Origin: Candidatus Heimdallarchaeota archaeon
GTDB taxonomy: Archaea; Asgardarchaeota; Heimdallarchaeia; JABLTI01
Length of the DNA: 32,000 nt
Direction of reading: 5' to 3'
Assembly: GCA_030614005.1 (NCBI GenBank)
Contig: JAUWKS010000021.1
Coordinates: forward strand, 1 to 32,000
Shown here: piece by piece, positions 15,309 through 27,575 of the stretch
How positions within the stretch are numbered: the first letter of the stretch is position 1
Layout of the letters: each line of letters begins with the position of its first letter
Position numbers and translations under genes: made by a program
Notes under the pieces: model-generated
The model's database searches: none
What the model was told of the DNA's origin: nothing
Seen by the model: only the letters and a program-made list of their open reading frames with translations

Positions 15309-15466
15309 GGAAAATTACTGGAAAAAAGATTAGTCAAAAAAAATCATTAGAAAAATATCTATAATAATAATACTTAATAAGCGGAAAAAATCAGAAGAAA
15401 TAACTCTGAGAGAATATGATATATAAATATTAATTGACTTTAATTACCTTGTATCATATTATAATA

Positions 15467-15994
15467 ATGGAGGTTCTAGCAGTGCCAGAAGAAATTAAAC
15501 TTCAAATTCCAGTCAAAATTGCTGAATTTATTGATAAACTAACTAAAGATGGGTATTTTAATTCGCGAGAGGATTTTGTTCGATGCTCTGTAGAAATTGT
15601 TGCTCAGCTCTACGGTCTTTCTAAAACATCGAAAGGTGGTAAAGCATTATTAGATGTTCTAGCTGACAATGAACTAACAAAAGCAAAACCAGCAAAAAAA
15701 GTTGAAGCAACCAAACGAACAACCCCAGTCACACCTAAACCATTACCAAAGAAAAAATCATCCGAACCTCTTTCAGCGGATGACTGTGATGTGATTGATC
15801 TATTTGCAGGAATGAAATTTGAATTTGAAGATGCTTTGCATGCTAGATATACAATGGAATTGATGAAACAAGCGAAAGCTCCAATACCTAAAGAACAATT
15901 TCTCGGAATATTAGCAAAGCTCCAAGCAAATGGTAATATTGAAAAGAGCGAACATAACAAAAAAGTCGTTTGGAAATTTATTGAAGGATATTAG
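15467..15994 (+). CDS. Ribbon-helix-helix (CopG/Arc/MetJ) protein with Lys/Pro linker and C-terminal winged-helix-like domain
   Basis: N-terminal 'IKLQIPVKIAEFIDKLTKDGYFNSREDFVR' is a typical archaeal RHH. The C-terminus ends 'ILAKLQANGNIEKSEHNKKVVWKF', suggesting helix plus wing. Confidence 0.65.
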   Translation: MEVLAVPEEIKLQIPVKIAEFIDKLTKDGYFNSREDFVRCSVEIVAQLYGLSKTSKGGKALLDVLADNELTKAKPAKKVEATKRTTPVTPKPLPKKKSSEPLSADDCDVIDLFAGMKFEFEDALHARYTMELMKQAKAPIPKEQFLGILAKLQANGNIEKSEHNKKVVWKFIEGY

Positions 15995-16065: not shown

Positions 16066-16506
16066 TCATTCTACTACTAAAACTGATATATCTACTCCAG
16101 ATATCCCTTCTATGGTCATAATATCTTTCTTTAATGCCTCTATATCGATTCTATCAAATTCTTCTGCATCAATGTAGCCATCAAATACACACGTATCTTC
16201 TAGAAAACACAAGCCAGTTGAATAAAGCGCTTTTAGACCTAAAGTTAAAAATATGTTACCAATTCTCTTTAGAAAATCAGGAGTTAACTGTCCTATATCA
16301 ATTGCTATTTTATACACCTTACTTGTCGTAGTAGGAATAATACGAATAATCTTGGTATTTGGTGTCAGTATAATTACAGCATAATTTCCAATCTCTGGTT
16401 TAAGTGCTTCAAGAAAATCAGCACTAAGTTGTAAAGATTTTTCTGACTCGAGTTTAAACATGCGCGCCATTGTTATTTGAAGGATTTCGTCTTTTTTCTT
16501 GACCAT
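16066..16506 (-). CDS. AbrB-like/ACT-like protein with YSTGLC motif (paralog of 10191..10604)
   Basis: Contains 'LYSTGLCFLEDTCVFDGYI' and has the same length and layout as its paralog. Confidence 0.55.
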   Translation of the reverse strand: MVKKKDEILQITMARMFKLESEKSLQLSADFLEALKPEIGNYAVIILTPNTKIIRIIPTTTSKVYKIAIDIGQLTPDFLKRIGNIFLTLGLKALYSTGLCFLEDTCVFDGYIDAEEFDRIDIEALKKDIMTIEGISGVDISVLVVE

Positions 16507-16643: not shown

Positions 16644-17627
16644 TCAAACACTTTGAACAATTTTTGGAGCACTGGCTACTTTAAAATTGTAAAAAGCCCA
16701 TTTTTTCGATGCAAGTACAGAGGTTACTTTGTTTGCATATTCTTTTAGTGTAGCAATTGTTATCAAATTCCCACCACCAATAAGGAAATATGCAGGTATG
16801 CCATCTTTCCTCATTTGATGGACATCATCACACAATTCTAACATCTTTGGTTTTCTTACAAACAATCCAACTTCTTCCAATAATTCATGTGCATTTCTAA
16901 TATTTCCTTCAGCAGCTTCAAGAACTTCAAGAAAATCTCTGTTATTCAAAGCAGTCTTTATCCGATTTACCCAAATCGGTATATCCTGAACACGTTTCTC
17001 AAAATTCCGATTTGTTATTATCCCTGCATGTATCTCATCAGCGGTTATTCGTGTATCAAAATGGAATGGAACAGAAAAAAGATTAATTTCTTCCAAATCG
17101 GAATGGGAAGCTAATTGCAAGACAGTTGGTGGAGAAGTATTAGCAAGTGTTAGAGTTAAACCACCGAATAAACTTCGACCGGCACTTTCTGACCCTCGCA
17201 TAGAATATTCTAATAATTGCTCTTGACTGTAATTTAAATCCAAAATATCATTAAGAGCAGTAAAAAGAGCAGCCAAACCCGAATCAGAGCTTCCACTAAA
17301 AATGTTATAATTTGTTGAATTAACTAAAAGATTTGCAGTGATATTACTATTCAACATAAAGGATTTAATTGCTAGCACGATTTGTTCTCCACGCAAGCCT
17401 GTTAGTTCTTTTCCCCCAAGCATAAATTTCACATATGGTGTTTCACGTGTTGGAGGAAGTTGATTGTCAGGAATAATTTCAACAGAGGTTTCCGTACGAG
17501 TAATTTCATCATGACTTGTCACTGCAAGGCCCATTGTATCGTAGATCGGTGTTCTATCAGAATTGATTCCACCGAGGAAAATAATTGGTATCGTAGGATA
17601 AGCTACAGCAACAGATTTTTTCTTCAT
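16644..17627 (-). CDS. Mevalonate-3-kinase-like GHMP protein (decarboxylase fold lacking the decarboxylation residues)
   Basis: 'AYPTIPIIFLGGI...RTP', 'NYNIFSGSSDSG', 'SESAGRSLFGGLT' and 'YFLIGGGN' match Thermoplasma mevalonate-3-kinase motifs as I recall them. ORF opens at 17663; I prefer ATG 17627. Confidence 0.8.
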   Translation of the reverse strand: MKKKSVAVAYPTIPIIFLGGINSDRTPIYDTMGLAVTSHDEITRTETSVEIIPDNQLPPTRETPYVKFMLGGKELTGLRGEQIVLAIKSFMLNSNITANLLVNSTNYNIFSGSSDSGLAALFTALNDILDLNYSQEQLLEYSMRGSESAGRSLFGGLTLTLANTSPPTVLQLASHSDLEEINLFSVPFHFDTRITADEIHAGIITNRNFEKRVQDIPIWVNRIKTALNNRDFLEVLEAAEGNIRNAHELLEEVGLFVRKPKMLELCDDVHQMRKDGIPAYFLIGGGNLITIATLKEYANKVTSVLASKKWAFYNFKVASAPKIVQSV

Positions 17628-17659
17628 TTTCTTCACCCAACTAAGAAATATAAAAAAAT

Positions 17660-18547
17660 TCAATAACTTTTTCGTTCTAATTTCAACTTTTCAATATACT
17701 CAATTGACTTCTTATATTCCTTAATATCATTAATTTTTCTTATTCTTTCGAAAAGATAATCATATACTAAATCAAGTCCTTGTTGGAAATCATCAATATC
17801 AATGATTTTTAGATTATGTCTTTCAGCGTCCTCACATAGATATTTTTGCATCAAAAGATATTTATCCATTTGCTCAAGCAAACGCTCACTTGAACTTTGC
17901 AAATGGGAAAAAAGAGTTCTGGATTTTAATCGCTCAGAGTATACAGCACGATCTGTAATTCTTAGAATAATCGGAATAAAGCTTGGATGAGCTAATATTT
18001 GTTTGTCAAATTGTGAGGGTAAGAAGTGAAGATATTCAACAAGGATATTTTCTCCATCTCTAATACCCCTATCGGCAATCATTCGTTGGACTGCTTGGTT
18101 CATAGTTTGTGATTGCTTTTTGTAACCCAATAAAAGATTTTGTTCAGTATACTCACCAAAATGCTTCCATGAATTGTAAACACTGGTAAAGAATTCTTTA
18201 TTCTCATTGTATGGTAAAATACTTCGAAAAGAAGAACGAAGAGCATCCCCGCCTATTACTATGCCAATATCTAGCGCAGTTGAAATTTCTTTTGCCATAG
18301 ATGTTTTCCCCACACCAGGTAAACCTGCAACAACTAAGCATAAGGGAAGTTTTTGGATGCCTTTTCGTATTTGAGTCTTATATTCTTTCATCACATGGTA
18401 GCGTTGTAAATATTTTTCCCCGTGATTTTGCAAAGAAGAGAAGAGGTCATCCTCAGTAGAAGAATTGCAAATTATTTCGCTAATCTGTCGTAAAGATAAT
18501 CCTGTAGCTAATAATAATGAATCCTCATTCCGGAAAATCATAAGCAA
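17660..18547 (-). CDS. 2-phosphoglycerate-kinase-family P-loop kinase, mevalonate-3-phosphate-5-kinase-like
   Basis: Motifs 'AGLPGVGKTS', 'GGDALR', 'TSVYNSWKHFG', 'GENILVEYLHFLP' and 'SHLQSSSERL'. Lies directly upstream of the GHMP gene. Confidence 0.75.
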   Translation of the reverse strand: MLMIFRNEDSLLLATGLSLRQISEIICNSSTEDDLFSSLQNHGEKYLQRYHVMKEYKTQIRKGIQKLPLCLVVAGLPGVGKTSMAKEISTALDIGIVIGGDALRSSFRSILPYNENKEFFTSVYNSWKHFGEYTEQNLLLGYKKQSQTMNQAVQRMIADRGIRDGENILVEYLHFLPSQFDKQILAHPSFIPIILRITDRAVYSERLKSRTLFSHLQSSSERLLEQMDKYLLMQKYLCEDAERHNLKIIDIDDFQQGLDLVYDYLFERIRKINDIKEYKKSIEYIEKLKLERKSY

Positions 18548-18772
18548 ACCAACTTTAACTAATCAATTTACGGTATTATTAGTTAAATATATTATACTTG
18601 TTGATGAATATTAGCAAAATATTGCCTAATCTGGAATTGAAACCTAATTAAAAGAGAAAATTCTTTCTTCTAATTTCGTTAGAAGAGCAATATTTTTAAT
18701 TAGATATTCTCGCAAATGACATATAGAATACAAACTTTCTATAGATTGAAGAAAAATTAAGGAAGAATCAAT

Positions 18773-21476: not shown

Positions 21477-22598
21477 TTAGACAGCTAAACTTAGCCAATC
21501 AGGAGAGATCCAACCCCACCCACTGTAACCAGCTAAAGCAAAGATACCCCACACACCAAAAGCAAGTATTAATCCTAAACCAATAGATAAGGGTAAACCA
21601 GGCATCATTTGAACCTTCTCAAGAAGTTTTATTGTACCAATTGCTCCAACAACTACACCAATAAAAGCTCCAATAGCTGAGAAGAAACCTAGCCTAATAA
21701 GAGCAAAACTAATGAGCATGCCAAAAAACGCAAGATCACCTAATCCCAATTCAATATAATCAGAATACTCATACTCAACCTCTGCTAGTGCAGTATCTAT
21801 ATTTGGTTCTGGAGTGTCAGATATATCTTCAACAGGAACGGTAATTTCGGATTCTTCTGTTTCACTTGTTGGGTTTGGAGTTGATAGATTCTTTTGATAT
21901 TTCTCATTTTCCCGTGCTTCACTTACTTCAGCAATTTTCTTAATTGGTCCTTTAAAAACTGAGATAATATCATATATGCTTAGCCCAATCATGATAAAAA
22001 CAGAAGCCAACATCGGTAGAAAAGTCGCTAGAAATGTTCCAGCTAAAACTGCGAAGAGCATTGCCATTACTTGAGATATTGGTTCTGCTGTCAACGTGTA
22101 AACCATTGAGACTACTGTAAAGATAGCATAAGCTAAACCAACAACAAGTGCAATTGAGATTATAACCCAGTCAGTTGAAACTTGGAAAACTCCTCCCGGT
22201 AAAAAGATATCAAGGAAGAAATAAGGAGTACTATAAACTAAAAGAAAGACAAAGAAAAACGATGTAACTGCAATGGCAACTGCAAAGAAAGCTTTCAATA
22301 GTTTGATCTTTCCATACTTGAAAATTAAGAAAATCACAAAAGCTCCAATAAAAGCTATTCCAACATAAAATAATGCATTTAATGCAGCAGCACCTGGAGT
22401 ATCACCTGGTACTGGTGTTGCCGGAGGAGGTCCACCACCACCACTTGCATCTGAATTAAAATAACCAAGAATGATTATGCTGCACAAGCCACTTAATACA
22501 GATATAATCATAATAGGAATTGATAATGAGATAAATTTCTTTTTAATGGTCACACTAAATGTTCCCAATTGACTGGCATAACCCATTTTTAGTACCAA
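21477..22598 (-). CDS. Presenilin-family (A22) intramembrane aspartyl protease
   Basis: About 9 hydrophobic segments, with 'IYDIISVFKGPIKKIAE' (YD), 'ELGLGDLAFF' (GxGD) and 'MPGLPLSI' (PAL-like). A long acidic loop separates the catalytic helices. Confidence 0.92.
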   Translation of the reverse strand: MVLKMGYASQLGTFSVTIKKKFISLSIPIMIISVLSGLCSIIILGYFNSDASGGGGPPPATPVPGDTPGAAALNALFYVGIAFIGAFVIFLIFKYGKIKLLKAFFAVAIAVTSFFFVFLLVYSTPYFFLDIFLPGGVFQVSTDWVIISIALVVGLAYAIFTVVSMVYTLTAEPISQVMAMLFAVLAGTFLATFLPMLASVFIMIGLSIYDIISVFKGPIKKIAEVSEARENEKYQKNLSTPNPTSETEESEITVPVEDISDTPEPNIDTALAEVEYEYSDYIELGLGDLAFFGMLISFALIRLGFFSAIGAFIGVVVGAIGTIKLLEKVQMMPGLPLSIGLGLILAFGVWGIFALAGYSGWGWISPDWLSLAV

Positions 22599-25274: not shown

Positions 25275-27575
25275 TTAGAATGCTTGCTTAATTTTTGCAG
25301 CAATGTCCTTTTGCTCATTTTTTATAATTTCAATTACTAGCTCAGGAAAATGAGGTTCATACTTGCTGAATAGTTCTCTAATTTCCTGCTTTGTTGGTTC
25401 TCTGTCCCCTAAAGAATTGAAAGCTTGAACGATTTTTCTTACATCATTAAACATATTATTAATATTATCACGAATAAATTTCGGTCTTTCTTTTGATCTC
25501 CTTCGCCACATTTTACGTAACAATTCATGGAGAAATTCCGATCGAGGTCCACCATAGGCACTCATTGATCTAAGATTAACTTTCACTGCTTCTCTAAAGA
25601 GTTTATCAGTTCCTTCTTGTGCGCCCATTAAATCAAATTCTTTAAGATTTATTCCAGCAAAATTCGTTGTCCATACTTGTGCATTGATTGCTTTATTCGG
25701 TGCAAAAATTGACAAGGCTTCAATAACATGTAATACATCCAATGGGTCATCTCCAATAACAACAACTGGATACCCAACAACTATTGCTCGCACAATGATA
25801 TCTAGTCCTTTCCGAATATAAAATCCTGCAATGTATGCACAATCTTTGTGTAATCGAACAAGTTTTTCACTTAAAGTTAAACCTGCTTCTAATGTTGCTA
25901 CTCCGAATGTTTTCTTTACCTCATTCAGATATAAATCAGGAGGTCTACCTTCTATTTTCAGAGTATTTATATCTCGACCAACTTTGAGTAAGATTGAAGA
26001 AGTATTAGTAACTTCTTTTACCAGTTCCTTTGGGTCAGTTATTTTACGTATTTTCTTGACTAAGCTTCTGGAGAATTCAGAGGAAGAACCACTAGTAACT
26101 TTCTTTTGATCTAAATCAACAATTGTAGCCCATGAATAATATTTGAGTAAATGTTTAGGAACATAAACAACATCTGCATCCTTTGGATGGACAAAAATAT
26201 CGCTTTTAATACATCGAAGAGATCTATGTGGAGCAAGAAGAGTCAAAGTTTCAAATATTTTATCCACTAAACCATTAGTGGTCACTTCAGGTGTATCACC
26301 AGTAACAACTACTAAATCCCCCATTAATAAAGCTTCGAAAATATTTTCAAGGTCTTTTTTAATCATTGAGTTTAATAGAAAAGGGTCTTTGTTTTTATCA
26401 TTAGGAACCCTAATTTTACCGGAATTATACCCTTTTTCTCTTCGAAGGGACTGTGAAGGAAGAGAACCATTCTTAGGGATGATTATTGTCATTTTATGAT
26501 TACGATCGATTTCTTGGGCGATAGGATCAATTTTCAGCTTAACGCCTTTAGATTCTTTCTCGTCTTTATCGGGTTCTACAGTATCTTTCAGTTTTGGTTC
26601 AATACCATTGGTCAATGTAGGGACTTTCATCTCACCTTGAGATGCAGCATAAAGTCCTGAACTTGTAGAACCTTGTCTATCACTATCTTTTTCCAAGCTA
26701 GGGGGGGCCATCATTGCAGATTCTATTGTATCATATTTTGTATTTGTTTTTTCGACAACTTGTGCATCATCTAAGCTAAATTTAGGTGTTACTTCCTTAC
26801 TCGGGGAAAATGCTTTTGTAACATCCAATGATGATTGAGAGAAATCCTGCGAAGTATCTGAAGAAACTGCTGTATCAGGTGAAATTTCACCTGATTTTTC
26901 TGTGGGTGCCTTTCGAGTTAGAATTTTAGAAGATTCATCGGAATCAAATGGTTTAATCGAAAAATATGATTTATTAGAAATTGTTGTTATATAGAGATAT
27001 CCTCTTTGGTAGACTTCACGTAACTGCCTTTCAACTTCTGCAGATGAAATTCCTGTTACTTGAGAAACCATATCAGGAGTAACAACTTTCATTTTTACCA
27101 GTACAAGTGTAACCATTTGTAACTCATTTGGTAAATTCAAAACTTCAAATGCATCAAGATCTTTTCGATTGCCAAAGGCTTCAATTTTCCTTTGGTCAAA
27201 AGCTTTTGATAATTCTACTAGTACTGAATCAAAGCTTCTAAATTGAGAGATATTTTTTCCATCAAAAGTAACACTAACATCATGTGGAAAAGCTTTGAAA
27301 AACCGATCTTCTAATTCAGGGAGAAATATAGATGGAACGCTTGTTTCATCGAAATCTGCCCCTATAACAAATAGAACGGAGTTATTAGAATGATAATAAT
27401 ATTTAGTGTCTTCCAAGATTATATCTTGTACTTTTTCAGTGAATTTACTAGTTGGTCCACTAAGCCACCCATAAAATTTTTCTAATCGATCTCTTTCCTC
27501 TTGATCAGTTATTTTTATGAATTTCATACCTGCAACGGGTGTGTCTTTAATGAGTATCCATACGAACTGTATCAT
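25275..27575 (-). CDS. Multidomain protein: longin-like, winged helix, linker and two DENN-like modules
   Basis: N-terminal 'IQFVWIL...YYYHSNNSVLFVIGAD...ELEDRFFKAF' is longin-like and 'TPDMVSQVTGISSAEVERQLREVYQRGYL' is wHTH-like. Internal repeats: 'IFEALLMGDLVVVTGD...IFETLTLLAPHR' and 'IVRAIVVGYPVVVIGD...VIEALSIFAPNK'. Confidence 0.6.
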   Translation of the reverse strand: MIQFVWILIKDTPVAGMKFIKITDQEERDRLEKFYGWLSGPTSKFTEKVQDIILEDTKYYYHSNNSVLFVIGADFDETSVPSIFLPELEDRFFKAFPHDVSVTFDGKNISQFRSFDSVLVELSKAFDQRKIEAFGNRKDLDAFEVLNLPNELQMVTLVLVKMKVVTPDMVSQVTGISSAEVERQLREVYQRGYLYITTISNKSYFSIKPFDSDESSKILTRKAPTEKSGEISPDTAVSSDTSQDFSQSSLDVTKAFSPSKEVTPKFSLDDAQVVEKTNTKYDTIESAMMAPPSLEKDSDRQGSTSSGLYAASQGEMKVPTLTNGIEPKLKDTVEPDKDEKESKGVKLKIDPIAQEIDRNHKMTIIIPKNGSLPSQSLRREKGYNSGKIRVPNDKNKDPFLLNSMIKKDLENIFEALLMGDLVVVTGDTPEVTTNGLVDKIFETLTLLAPHRSLRCIKSDIFVHPKDADVVYVPKHLLKYYSWATIVDLDQKKVTSGSSSEFSRSLVKKIRKITDPKELVKEVTNTSSILLKVGRDINTLKIEGRPPDLYLNEVKKTFGVATLEAGLTLSEKLVRLHKDCAYIAGFYIRKGLDIIVRAIVVGYPVVVIGDDPLDVLHVIEALSIFAPNKAINAQVWTTNFAGINLKEFDLMGAQEGTDKLFREAVKVNLRSMSAYGGPRSEFLHELLRKMWRRRSKERPKFIRDNINNMFNDVRKIVQAFNSLGDREPTKQEIRELFSKYEPHFPELVIEIIKNEQKDIAAKIKQAF

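What the first reader, a model, noticed from the sequence alone, without database searches (positions are those of the whole stretch)
16644..18547. Two-gene unit resembling the Thermoplasma-type mevalonate pathway in a probable Asgard archaeon
Seen: co-oriented genes 32 nt apart, a 2-PGK-family kinase followed by a GHMP protein. Established (from memory): Thermoplasmatales use mevalonate-3-kinase (Ta1305), mevalonate-3-phosphate-5-kinase (Ta0762, a 2-PGK-family kinase) and a bisphosphomevalonate decarboxylase to reach isopentenyl phosphate. Both proteins here share distinctive motifs with those enzymes: 'AYPTI..LGGI', 'SGSSD', 'SESAGRSLFGGLT'; and 'TSVY..WK..G', 'H..S..RL'. Inference: this lineage makes isoprenoid precursors by a route usually tied to acidophilic Thermoplasmatales, which bears on Asgard lipid evolution. 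Having the two genes side by side strengthens the pathway assignment.
Basis: partly seen in the sequence, partly recalled or inferred. Interest (0 to 1): 0.85.

Follow-up and report, generated by a model that had tools for sequence, protein, structure and literature searches.

The report
Mevalonate-3-kinase gene pair, Heimdall archaeon
[quoted passage not shown] They appear to feed a eukaryote-style decarboxylase instead, which would be an untested hybrid route to isoprenoid building blocks; the presence of these genes in this lineage was already published in 2024.

Summary
On the minus strand, a 293-aa P-loop kinase (17660-18541) is followed after 32 nt by a 327-aa GHMP/MDD-fold protein (16644-17627).

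The GHMP protein is closest to Thermoplasma mevalonate-3-kinase by sequence, tree and fold, and it lacks the decarboxylase Asp. The kinase scores best against mevalonate-3-phosphate 5-kinase and separates cleanly from the true 2PGK-like paralogues of other Heimdallarchaeia.

The organism belongs to Heimdallarchaeia order JABLTI01. M3K and M3P5K homologues were already reported in this order in 2024 (PMC11052028).

The pathway reading is only partly right. This family of 12 genomes has no bisphosphomevalonate decarboxylase, no IPK, no GHMP PMK and no AcnX. It does have an adjacent diphosphate-type decarboxylase (DMD) and one MVK/PMK-intermediate GHMP kinase.

In DPANN relatives the same front pair sits in one operon with either MBD-like plus IPK (type A) or DMD plus that GHMP kinase (type B). 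The two types are interleaved on the trees, and IPK and the GHMP kinase are mutually exclusive across five genomes.

Best model, untested: MVA, then M3P, then M3,5BP, then 3-phospho-5-diphosphomevalonate, then IPP, without IPK.

Earlier notes from this scan had flagged the same stretch and the DMD/kinase pair on another contig of this genome.

The parts
17660..18541 (-). P-loop kinase of the 2PGK/M3P5K superfamily, 293 aa from the ATG (the listed ORF starts at TTG 18547). It has an N-terminal helical domain of about 65 aa followed by a kinase domain with the Walker A motif GLPGVGKT. Predicted mevalonate-3-phosphate 5-kinase.
   Evidence: - NCBIfam: the best family is M3P5K NF008996 at 134.6 bits (cut-off 250), against 2PGK NF003259 at 111.3 bits.
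- 2PGK-like paralogues of other Heimdallarchaeia score 245-259 and 74-97 bits on those two models.
- Tree: the operon-linked kinases form a clade with 100/99 support, apart from those paralogues.
- Fold: matches 2PGKs and Ta0762, the latter at 29% identity and rmsd 2.3.
- It lies next to an M3K-like gene at every locus where that flank was recovered.
17628..17659 (-). 32-nt intergenic spacer with a GGTGA ribosome-binding-like motif (17633-17637) 5 nt upstream of the downstream ATG. This is consistent with co-transcription.
   Evidence: Sequence read directly. Co-transcription is inferred, not shown.
16644..17627 (-). GHMP/MDD-fold protein of 327 aa. Predicted mevalonate 3-kinase, a non-decarboxylating 3-OH kinase.
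   Evidence: - Pfam MVD-like_N plus M3K_C, both above the gathering score.
- NCBIfam M3K 147.6 bits (cut-off 440), against PMD 69 and DMD 58.
- PDB: Ta1305 at E 1.6e-21.
- AF2 model with pLDDT 93.6; the best folds are 4rkz and 4rkp at TM 0.87-0.91.
- It groups with T. acidophilum M3K against DMD and MBD-like proteins with 100/99 support.
- It has YFLIGGGN where decarboxylases have YT.D.G.N, keeps the SES...R motif and the loop Arg, and lacks the Tyr/Lys/Arg diphosphate binders.
18542..18772 (-). A+T-rich divergent intergenic region between the kinase gene and the uS19 gene. It holds a TATA-like run (about 18585-18596) and is the likely promoter region of the pair.
   Evidence: Sequence read directly. 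Not tested.

Best explanation
The two window genes encode the front half of a mevalonate-to-IPP module.

1. The GHMP protein phosphorylates the 3-OH of mevalonate and stops there, because it has no catalytic Asp. The product is mevalonate 3-phosphate (M3P).
2. The upstream P-loop kinase phosphorylates the 5-OH, giving mevalonate 3,5-bisphosphate (M3,5BP).
3. In this lineage the back half is not MBD plus IPK as in Thermoplasma. It is a gene pair on another contig (C21): an MVK-scaffold GHMP kinase with PMK-type motifs, and a diphosphate-type decarboxylase (DMD).
4. The GHMP kinase most likely adds the beta-phosphate, giving 3-phospho-5-diphosphomevalonate.
5. The DMD-type enzyme then eliminates phosphate and CO2 to give IPP directly, so no isopentenyl phosphate kinase is needed.

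Shown here: the homologies, the diagnostic residues, the gene neighbourhoods, the phyletic pattern and the trees. Inferred: every catalytic step. The front half (M3K plus M3P5K activity) is about 70% likely. The complete hybrid route is about 45% likely.
For: Front half:
- Best family, PDB and fold matches are to Ta1305 and Ta0762.
- The Asp that defines decarboxylases is replaced. Its role is documented in PMC9254496.
- The kinase is distinct from 2PGK-like paralogues.
- The pair occurs in 11 of 11 genomes of the genus and nowhere else among 82 genomes of the class.
- Orthologues sit in M3K, kinase, MBD-like, IPK operons.

Back half:
- Family f1 lacks IPK (0 of 12, against 63 of 70 elsewhere), a GHMP PMK and AcnX (1 of 12). 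The own genome lacks MBD.
- HMGR and IDI2 are present.
- DMD and the GHMP kinase are adjacent.
- In Aenigmatarchaeota all four genes form one tight operon.
- Type A and type B back halves swap at least 3 times among front-half kinases that are up to 74% identical.
- IPK and the GHMP kinase are mutually exclusive in five DPANN genomes.
- Type-B decarboxylases carry the DMD signature (Lys of KYWGK, Arg, Met). Type-A decarboxylases carry the PMD/MBD signature (Met, Arg, His) (residue roles from PMC3857490, and the title of entry 6n0z).
- The GHMP kinase has PMK-type GSGxD(I/V)A and SGAGxGD motifs. PMC11052028 places it as the PMK clade nearest the MVK outgroup.

Precedent: a dual-function decarboxylase accepts its pre-phosphorylated intermediate with ADP as cofactor (PMC5177888). 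DMD Asp mutants release the 3-phospho-5-diphosphate compound (PMC9254496).
Against: - No activity has been measured for any of the four proteins.
- Both window proteins fall well below the NCBIfam equivalog cut-offs (147.6 of 440 and 134.6 of 250).
- The GHMP kinase passes the MVK model's cut-off (197.5 against 163), its best solved relatives are MVKs, and PGAP names its orthologues mevalonate kinase. My tree does not resolve MVK from PMK.
- The DMD keeps an intact ATP P-loop and the loop Lys. It could therefore do its own 3-phosphorylation, which would make a separate M3K seem redundant.
- The window kinase has the N-terminal domain of 2PGKs, which Ta0762 lacks.
- The own assembly is 90% complete.
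- A structure-only PMVK-like kinase in Asgard archaea has been reported, and I could not trace which proteins it refers to.
Confidence: 0.48

Rival explanations
1. Classical eukaryote-type route with a non-orthologous PMK. The C21 GHMP kinase is a true mevalonate 5-kinase, the window P-loop kinase phosphorylates MVA-5-P to MVA-5-PP (as the unrelated P-loop PMK of animals does), and DMD makes IPP. The M3K-like protein would be accessory, regulatory or redundant.
For: - The GHMP kinase scores as MVK and is annotated as MVK.
- The DMD is a complete dual-function type.
- PMK is the one missing step.
- P-loop PMKs exist in animals (established knowledge).
Against: - It leaves the strictly co-inherited M3K-like gene without a role.
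- The same kinase clade, at up to 74% identity, sits in operons with MBD-like plus IPK and no MVK in the genome. There it must act on M3P.
- The kinase model does not resemble animal PMVK among the top hits.
- The family's known chemistry is phosphorylation of a hydroxyl group.
Confidence: 0.17
2. Monophosphate variant of the hybrid. M3K and M3P5K make M3,5BP, the DMD-like enzyme decarboxylates it to isopentenyl phosphate, and the GHMP kinase takes the place of IPK (IP to IPP).
For: - The GHMP kinase occupies the operon position and the phyletic niche of IPK.
- R. castenholzii PMD decarboxylates M3,5BP.
Against: The type-B decarboxylases carry the diphosphate-type residues Lys, Arg and Met, not the monophosphate-type residues seen in the type-A MBD-like proteins.
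Confidence: 0.1
3. Complete Thermoplasma-type pathway: M3K, M3P5K, MBD, then IPK.
For: Homology of the two window proteins. Relatives with the full operon exist.
Against: - No MBD-like gene in the own genome. JABLTI01 MAGs also score 0 for MBD in Table S3 of PMC11052028.
- IPK is absent from all 12 genomes of the family, although it passes its cut-off in 63 of 70 other genomes of the class.
Confidence: 0.05
4. The pair is not on the main isoprenoid route. It could be a side, salvage or regulatory branch acting on mevalonate or another 3-hydroxy acid, or the kinase could be a true 2-phosphoglycerate kinase.
For: - Both proteins are below the equivalog cut-offs.
- The kinase has 2PGK architecture.
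- M3Ks are known to accept other 3-hydroxy acids (PMC4357925 abstract).
Against: - The pair is in a tight operon with DMD plus kinase, or with MBD plus IPK, in many genomes of only 0.7-0.9 Mb.
- The lineage otherwise has a gap between mevalonate and IPP.
- The 2PGK model score is less than half that of the real 2PGK-like paralogues.
Confidence: 0.1

Closest known systems
Thermoplasma-type mevalonate pathway (M3K Ta1305, M3P5K Ta0762, MBD Ta0893, IPK)
   Same: The two window proteins are the closest relatives of Ta1305 and Ta0762 by sequence, fold and tree. The M3K hallmark, loss of the catalytic Asp, is present. Some DPANN relatives carry the complete four-gene set in one operon.
   Different: - This lineage has no MBD and no IPK. 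The decarboxylase is a diphosphate-type DMD, and a GHMP kinase stands in IPK's place.
- The kinase carries an extra N-terminal helical domain.
- Identity to the Thermoplasma enzymes is only about 27-30%.
- The habitat is cold-seep and marine sediment, not acid.
Eukaryote-type (classical) mevalonate pathway (MVK, PMK, DMD)
   Same: A DMD with the canonical Tyr/Lys/Ser/Arg/Met/Asp residues. IPP would be the direct product, so no IPK is needed. An MVK/PMK-family kinase lies next to the DMD.
   Different: Only one MVK/PMK-family kinase is present instead of two. No recognisable PMK was found (GHMP type or, by sequence, animal type). Two additional kinases (M3K-like and P-loop) are co-inherited with DMD and the GHMP kinase.
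2-phosphoglycerate kinase of methanogens and Thermococcales
   Same: Same superfamily and the same two-domain architecture, with TM 0.74-0.78 to Swiss-Prot 2PGK models.
   Different: Identity is 18-24%. The NF003259 score is 111, against 245-259 for the 2PGK-like paralogues of other Heimdallarchaeia. It forms a separate clade and is always linked to an M3K-like gene.
M3K and M3P5K homologues of Heimdallarchaeia o__JABLTI01 and DPANN reported in PMC11052028 (2024)
   Same: The same gene families and the same lineage. The gene content in that paper's Table S3 (M3K 1, M3P5K 1, DMD 1, one GHMP kinase, no IPK, no MBD, no AcnX) matches what I find.
   Different: That paper reports presence and phylogeny, and calls the content a 'mixed combination'. 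As far as I could read, it gives no pathway model, no comparison of operon types and no residue-level argument. It counts the GHMP kinase as PMK, whereas NCBIfam and PGAP call it MVK.

Membership tests
Mevalonate 3-kinase (EC 2.7.1.185, Ta1305 type) | MDD/GHMP fold with the M3K-specific C-terminal domain | tested here: met
   Pfam MVD-like_N 54.1 bits and M3K_C 45.9 bits, both above the cut-off of 27. The AF2 model's best PDB hits are 4rkz and 4rkp at TM 0.87-0.91.
Mevalonate 3-kinase (EC 2.7.1.185, Ta1305 type) | Closer to characterised M3K than to DMD, PMD or MBD | tested here: met
   NCBIfam 147.6 bits against 69 and 58. PDB 80 bits against 39 or less. A 100/99 split places {M3K-like + T. 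acidophilum M3K} against {DMD, MBD-like}; the Thermoplasma branch is long.
Mevalonate 3-kinase (EC 2.7.1.185, Ta1305 type) | Catalytic Asp of the decarboxylases absent | tested here: met
   The window protein has YFLIGGGN, Ta1305 has YIVTGGSN, and DMD has YYTIDTGAN. No acidic residue occurs in this loop in any of the 15 family members aligned. The role of the Asp comes from PMC9254496.
Mevalonate 3-kinase (EC 2.7.1.185, Ta1305 type) | Loop Arg (Ta1305 Arg185) and the Glu of the SES motif conserved; no Tyr/Lys/Arg 5-(di)phosphate binders | tested here: met
   SESAGRS and the loop Arg are nearly invariant. The KYWGK and S-R..M positions are not conserved. The importance of Arg185 comes from PMC9254496. 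The role of the Glu is recalled from memory only.
Mevalonate 3-kinase (EC 2.7.1.185, Ta1305 type) | Reaches the NCBIfam equivalog cut-off (NF040848, 440 bits) | tested here: not met
   147.6 bits. It is a separate subfamily at about 27-30% identity to Ta1305.
Mevalonate 3-kinase (EC 2.7.1.185, Ta1305 type) | Converts mevalonate to mevalonate 3-phosphate | not testable with these tools
   Needs an enzyme assay.
Mevalonate-3-phosphate 5-kinase (EC 2.7.1.186, Ta0762 type) | Best-matching family, and a catalytic domain most like Ta0762 | tested here: met
   NF008996 is the best hit at 134.6 bits. Q9HK44 gives the highest identity (29%) and the lowest rmsd (2.3) of all Swiss-Prot hits.
Mevalonate-3-phosphate 5-kinase (EC 2.7.1.186, Ta0762 type) | Reaches the equivalog cut-off (250 bits) and has the single-domain architecture of about 200 aa | tested here: not met
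   134.6 bits. The window protein has an extra N-terminal helical domain of about 65 aa, as 2PGKs do.
Mevalonate-3-phosphate 5-kinase (EC 2.7.1.186, Ta0762 type) | Functionally linked to M3K, MBD and IPK | tested here: met
   It lies next to an M3K-like gene at every locus where that flank was recovered. Four loci show the operon M3K, kinase, MBD-like, IPK.
2-phosphoglycerate kinase | Groups with and scores as 2PGK | tested here: not met
   NF003259 scores 111 bits (cut-off 343), against 245-259 for the Heimdall 2PGK-like paralogues. It forms a separate clade with 100/99 support. Linkage to cDPG synthetase was not tested.
Thermoplasma-type mevalonate pathway (whole system) | MBD (ATP-independent bisphosphomevalonate decarboxylase) present | tested here: not met
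   The best NF040847 match in the own genome is the DMD, at 68 bits (cut-off 560). Table S3 of PMC11052028 gives MBD 0 for the JABLTI01 MAGs.
Thermoplasma-type mevalonate pathway (whole system) | Isopentenyl phosphate kinase present | tested here: not met
   Found in 0 of 12 family genomes, against 63 of 70 elsewhere in the class. The own AAK-family proteins are PyrH and an MfnE-like protein.
Eukaryote-type mevalonate pathway (whole system) | DMD with diphosphate-binding and catalytic residues | tested here: met
   TIGR01240 at 309.6 bits (cut-off 171). The Lys, Arg, Met and Asp residues and the P-loop are present.
Eukaryote-type mevalonate pathway (whole system) | Separate MVK and PMK | tested here: not met
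   There is one MVK/PMK-family kinase per genome. TIGR01220 never reaches its cut-off in the family, whereas a true Heimdall PMK scores 216 bits. No PF04275 match was found, though that search had no positive control.

The most novel reading that the evidence does not exclude
Heimdallarchaeia JABLTI01 and many Aenigmatarchaeota run a fifth, undescribed variant of the mevalonate pathway.

- Mevalonate is phosphorylated first at C3 and then at C5, as in Thermoplasma.
- A PMK-like GHMP kinase converts the bisphosphate to 3-phospho-5-diphosphomevalonate.
- A DMD-type enzyme, acting only as decarboxylase, releases IPP, so the route does not need IPK.

The GHMP kinase branches nearest the MVK outgroup in the published PMK tree. 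This module could therefore be the setting in which phosphomevalonate kinase, and with it the eukaryote-type route, arose in the archaeal relatives of eukaryotes.
Probability: 0.4. Interest if true: 0.8.

Novelty: new variant of a known kind. Interest (0 to 1): 0.55.

Why it matters
- Isoprenoid supply underlies archaeal membranes. The origin of the eukaryotic mevalonate pathway is an open question tied to Asgard archaea.
- The genes themselves are not news: PMC11052028 listed them in 2024.
- The comparison made here turns an unexplained 'mixed combination' into a concrete prediction that needs only four enzymes to test. The same M3K-plus-kinase front half is coupled either to MBD plus IPK or to a diphosphate-type DMD plus a PMK-like kinase.
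- If the prediction holds, the 3-phospho route is not an adaptation to acid, since these organisms live in cold-seep and marine sediments. It would also add a new free intermediate (3-phospho-5-diphosphomevalonate) and give a plausible evolutionary bridge between the Thermoplasma-type and eukaryote-type pathways.
- If it fails, the lineage has an unfilled PMK or IPK step, which is itself worth knowing.

Tried and rejected
- The sequence search of the PDB with the kinase found only P-loop fragments. The PDB fold search gave only generic NMP and gluconate kinases.
- The one scan of genome contigs with the kinase alignment reached Heimdall and DPANN MAGs only. It reached no Thermoplasmatales or methanogens, so I could not build a tree that includes Ta0762 and characterised 2PGKs. 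I used Heimdall 2PGK-like paralogues as the outgroup instead.
- The M3K structure paper (Protein Sci 2015) is not held. The JBC 2017 DMD-to-kinase paper was not found.
- The GHMP-kinase tree does not say whether the C21 kinase is an MVK or a PMK.
- PF04275 (animal-type PMK) found nothing in the own genome or in 82 genomes of the class. No control genome rang, so this is weak.
- The Asgard 'PMVK-like' structural cluster mentioned in PMC12962969 could not be traced to particular proteins.
- No RNA holder is listed for the stretch, so I did not use read laying.
- No tRNA and no Rfam family was found in the window.
- An apparent break of the kinase gene in L046 is a 100-N scaffold gap. In L045 it is a frameshift in a single MAG.
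Full report
**Observation.** Two ORFs lie head to tail on the minus strand: 17660..18547 and 16644..17663.
- Database clusters identical to them are 293 and 327 aa long, so the real starts are the ATGs at 18541 and 17627.
It holds GGTGA 5 nt before the ATG.
- The quoted GHMP motifs are present and align to the same motifs of Ta1305.
- The window has 28-38% G+C. It also carries uS19, uS2, a presenilin homologue, TIM, Pus10 and aIF5B-type genes.
- The same gene order occurs on a 2.26-Mb Heimdallarchaeota contig.
- The kinase's nearest named relatives are Candidatus Heimdallarchaeota MAGs, including HMA_bin2.83 (JABLTI01), 12R2_15 and 12F4_9. These are the JABLTI01 genomes used in PMC11052028.
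- The stretch occurs in cold-seep and marine-sediment metagenomes.

**The GHMP protein.**
- It has Pfam MVD-like_N plus M3K_C.
- Its best NCBIfam model is mevalonate-3-kinase at 147.6 bits, against 69 for PMD and 58 for DMD. That is far below the equivalog cut-off of 440.
- Its best solved relative is Ta1305 at 80 bits, against 39 or less for decarboxylases.
- An AlphaFold model (pLDDT 93.6) matches the T. acidophilum M3K structures best (TM 0.87-0.91), just ahead of the MDDs.
- In a tree with DMD-like and MBD-like proteins, it falls with T. acidophilum M3K on one side of a 100/99 split. The Thermoplasma branch is long.
- The Asp that all decarboxylases need, and that M3K lacks (PMC9254496), is replaced. 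The loop reads YFLIGGGN, against YYTIDTGAN in the genome's own DMD.
- The SES..R motif and the loop Arg are kept. Arg185 of Ta1305 is essential according to PMC9254496.
- The Tyr/Lys/Arg residues that hold a 5-(di)phosphate in DMD (PMC3857490 Table 4) are absent.
- I read it as a kinase that phosphorylates the 3-OH of free mevalonate and does not decarboxylate.

**The P-loop kinase.**
- Its best NCBIfam model is mevalonate-3-phosphate 5-kinase at 134.6 bits (cut-off 250), followed by 2PGK at 111.3 bits.
- Other Heimdallarchaeia have 2PGK-like paralogues that score 245-259 on the 2PGK model and 74-97 on the M3P5K model.
- In a tree, the kinases linked to M3K-like genes form a 100/99 clade apart from those paralogues.
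- The model (pLDDT 90.5) matches Swiss-Prot 2PGKs over both domains, at 18-24% identity. It matches Ta0762 over the kinase domain, at 29% identity and rmsd 2.3.
- Ta0762 lacks the N-terminal domain, so the window protein has 2PGK architecture with a catalytic domain closest to M3P5K.

**What the genome lacks and has.** The assembly is 3.62 Mb and 90% complete.

| Enzyme | Result |
|---|---|
| HMGR, IDI2 | present |
| MDD-superfamily genes | two only: the window gene and a DMD on contig C21 (TIGR01240 309.6 bits) |
| MVK-like GHMP kinase | one, next to the DMD (TIGR00549 197.5 bits) |
| MBD | none |
| IPK | none; the AAK-family proteins are PyrH and an MfnE-like protein |
| Further MVK or PMK | none; the other GHMP kinases are galactokinase-like and pantoate kinase |

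Across 82 genomes of the class:

| Feature | In the window's own group | Elsewhere in the class |
|---|---|---|
| M3K-like gene | 11 of 11 genomes of the genus | none |
| High-scoring M3P5K-like kinase | present; confined to the family (11 of its 12 genomes) | none |
| IPK | 0 of 12 genomes of the family | 63 of 70 |
| GHMP PMK | none reaches the cut-off; a true Heimdall PMK scores 216 bits | not applicable |
| AcnX | 1 of 12 | not searched |
| DMD plus GHMP kinase | 9 of 12, always as neighbours | sporadic |

This agrees with Table S3 of PMC11052028. That paper already reported M3K and M3PK homologues in JABLTI01 and DPANN, and called the gene content a 'mixed combination'.

**Comparative context.** This is the new part of the analysis.
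- In Aenigmatarchaeota and related MAGs, the four genes form one tight co-directional operon: M3K-like, P-loop kinase, DMD, GHMP kinase. I call this type B.
- In other Aenigmatarchaeota, a Micrarchaeota MAG and an unassigned contig, the same two front genes are followed by an MBD-like decarboxylase and IPK. I call this type A, and it is a complete Thermoplasma-type lower pathway.
- Heimdall genomes carry type B split into two pairs. In one relative the pairs are 3.6 kb apart.
- On both the kinase tree and the M3K tree, types A and B are interleaved. There are at least 3 switches, and type-A and type-B kinases are up to 74% identical. The front half very probably does the same chemistry in both types.
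- In five DPANN genomes, IPK and the GHMP kinase exclude each other. Type B has IPK 0 and GHMP kinase 1; type A has IPK 1 and GHMP kinase 0.
- The decarboxylases differ exactly where specificity is set:
  - Type-B enzymes have KYWGK, S/T-T-R and Met, as DMDs do. These are the residues introduced in the A. thermophila PMD N20K/H194M mutant, entry 6n0z.
  - Type-A enzymes have KYLGM, an extra Arg and His, as PMD and MBD do.
- Type A should therefore release isopentenyl phosphate and needs IPK. Type B should release IPP and does not.

**The GHMP kinase.**
- Overall it resembles MVKs. It passes the TIGR00549 cut-off, its best solved relatives are MVKs, and PGAP names its orthologues mevalonate kinase.
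- Two of its motifs are of the PMK type. It has GSGLDIA and SGAGVGD, where solved MVKs have PSGxD(N/T) and GxGxGG, and PMKs have GSGFDVA or GSCGDIA and SGxGGGD.
- In my tree, the type-B kinases form their own clade (99/98). It lies inside a larger clade that also holds Heimdall PMKs, and apart from the IPK-linked archaeal MVKs. MVK and PMK are not resolved.
- PMC11052028 counts these proteins as the PMK clade nearest the MVK outgroup.

**Mechanism proposed.**
1. Mevalonate is converted to M3P by the window GHMP protein.
2. M3P is converted to M3,5BP by the window kinase.
3. M3,5BP is converted to 3-phospho-5-diphosphomevalonate by the C21 GHMP kinase, acting as a PMK.
4. That compound is converted to IPP by the C21 DMD, acting as decarboxylase.

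The total is three ATP, as in the classical route. Two precedents make the last step plausible. R. castenholzii PMD decarboxylates its pre-phosphorylated intermediate with ADP bound (PMC5177888). DMD Asp mutants behave as MVA-5-PP 3-kinases (PMC9254496). All catalytic steps are inferred.

The main weaknesses are the MVK-like overall character of the GHMP kinase and the intact ATP site of the DMD, which makes a separate 3-kinase look redundant. I put the front half at about 0.7 and the whole route at about 0.45.

**Rivals.**
- A classical route with the P-loop kinase as a PMK analogue gives the M3K-like gene no role. It also conflicts with the type-A operons.
- In a monophosphate variant, the GHMP kinase replaces IPK. 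This conflicts with the diphosphate-type residues of the decarboxylase.
- The full Thermoplasma-type route is contradicted by the absence of MBD and IPK.
- A side pathway or a true 2PGK conflicts with the operons and the scores.

**Verdict.**
- The pathway assignment needs correcting.
- The presence of these genes in this lineage is already in the literature.
- What remains of interest is the predicted hybrid route, which would not need IPK, and its possible bearing on the origin of PMK and the eukaryote-type pathway.

Noticed in passing
window 16066-16506 (-): A 146-aa ORF lies directly downstream of the M3K-like gene on the same strand and is conserved in this position in Heimdall relatives (L020, L022). 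It has no Pfam or NCBIfam family. The protein-atlas search finds Asgard-only hypothetical clusters at score 0.92 and only weak ACT- or AbrB/MazE-like leads at 0.75-0.81.
   Followed up: partly
window 21477-22598 (-): A presenilin-family membrane protease homologue (PF01080, 63 bits) sits between ribosomal protein genes and an LVIVD-repeat protein. The order presenilin, uS2, uS19, kinase, M3K, TIM is conserved in other Heimdall contigs. In L020 the DMD and GHMP kinase pair sits right next to the presenilin gene.
   Followed up: partly
window 25275-27575 (-) and 15434-15994 (+): A 766-aa ORF and a 186-aa ORF with a Lys/Pro-rich middle have no Pfam family. The 186-aa ORF also has no NCBIfam family.
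   Followed up: no
L023:6001-10003 and L024 (ENA ERZ27293349 and ERZ27293400): A complete Thermoplasma-type lower pathway lies in one operon (M3K-like, kinase, 409-aa MBD-like, IPK) in an unassigned, apparently non-acidophile organism. A GreA/GreB-family gene lies 2.4 kb upstream, which is unusual for an archaeal contig.
   Followed up: partly
L044:3949-6724 (Candidatus Iainarchaeum MAG): The kinase is flanked by two M3K-like paralogues. The second also lacks the catalytic Asp and has SASSPRS in place of SESAGRS. No decarboxylase lies within 5 kb.
   Followed up: no
L013 (G051:C43:14000-26000): Another Heimdall family has one cluster that holds IDI2, UbiX, DMD, a true PMK, AcnX, a UbiD-type decarboxylase and MVK. 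Archaeal-type and eukaryote-type genes are therefore side by side. PMC11052028 noted the same for Hodarchaeales.
   Followed up: partly
L045:5001-5830; L046:5001-6025: In two closely related Aenigmatarchaeota-type loci the P-loop kinase reading frame is interrupted. In L046 the cause is a 100-N scaffold gap. In L045 it is a frameshift with about 11 residues missing, which may be an assembly error or a real lesion. The other three operon genes are intact.
   Followed up: partly
G080:C44:111373-112590: This is the only AcnX gene found in the window's family (292 bits). It occurs in a genome with about 7% contamination, so it could be foreign DNA or a retained archaeal-type gene.
   Followed up: no
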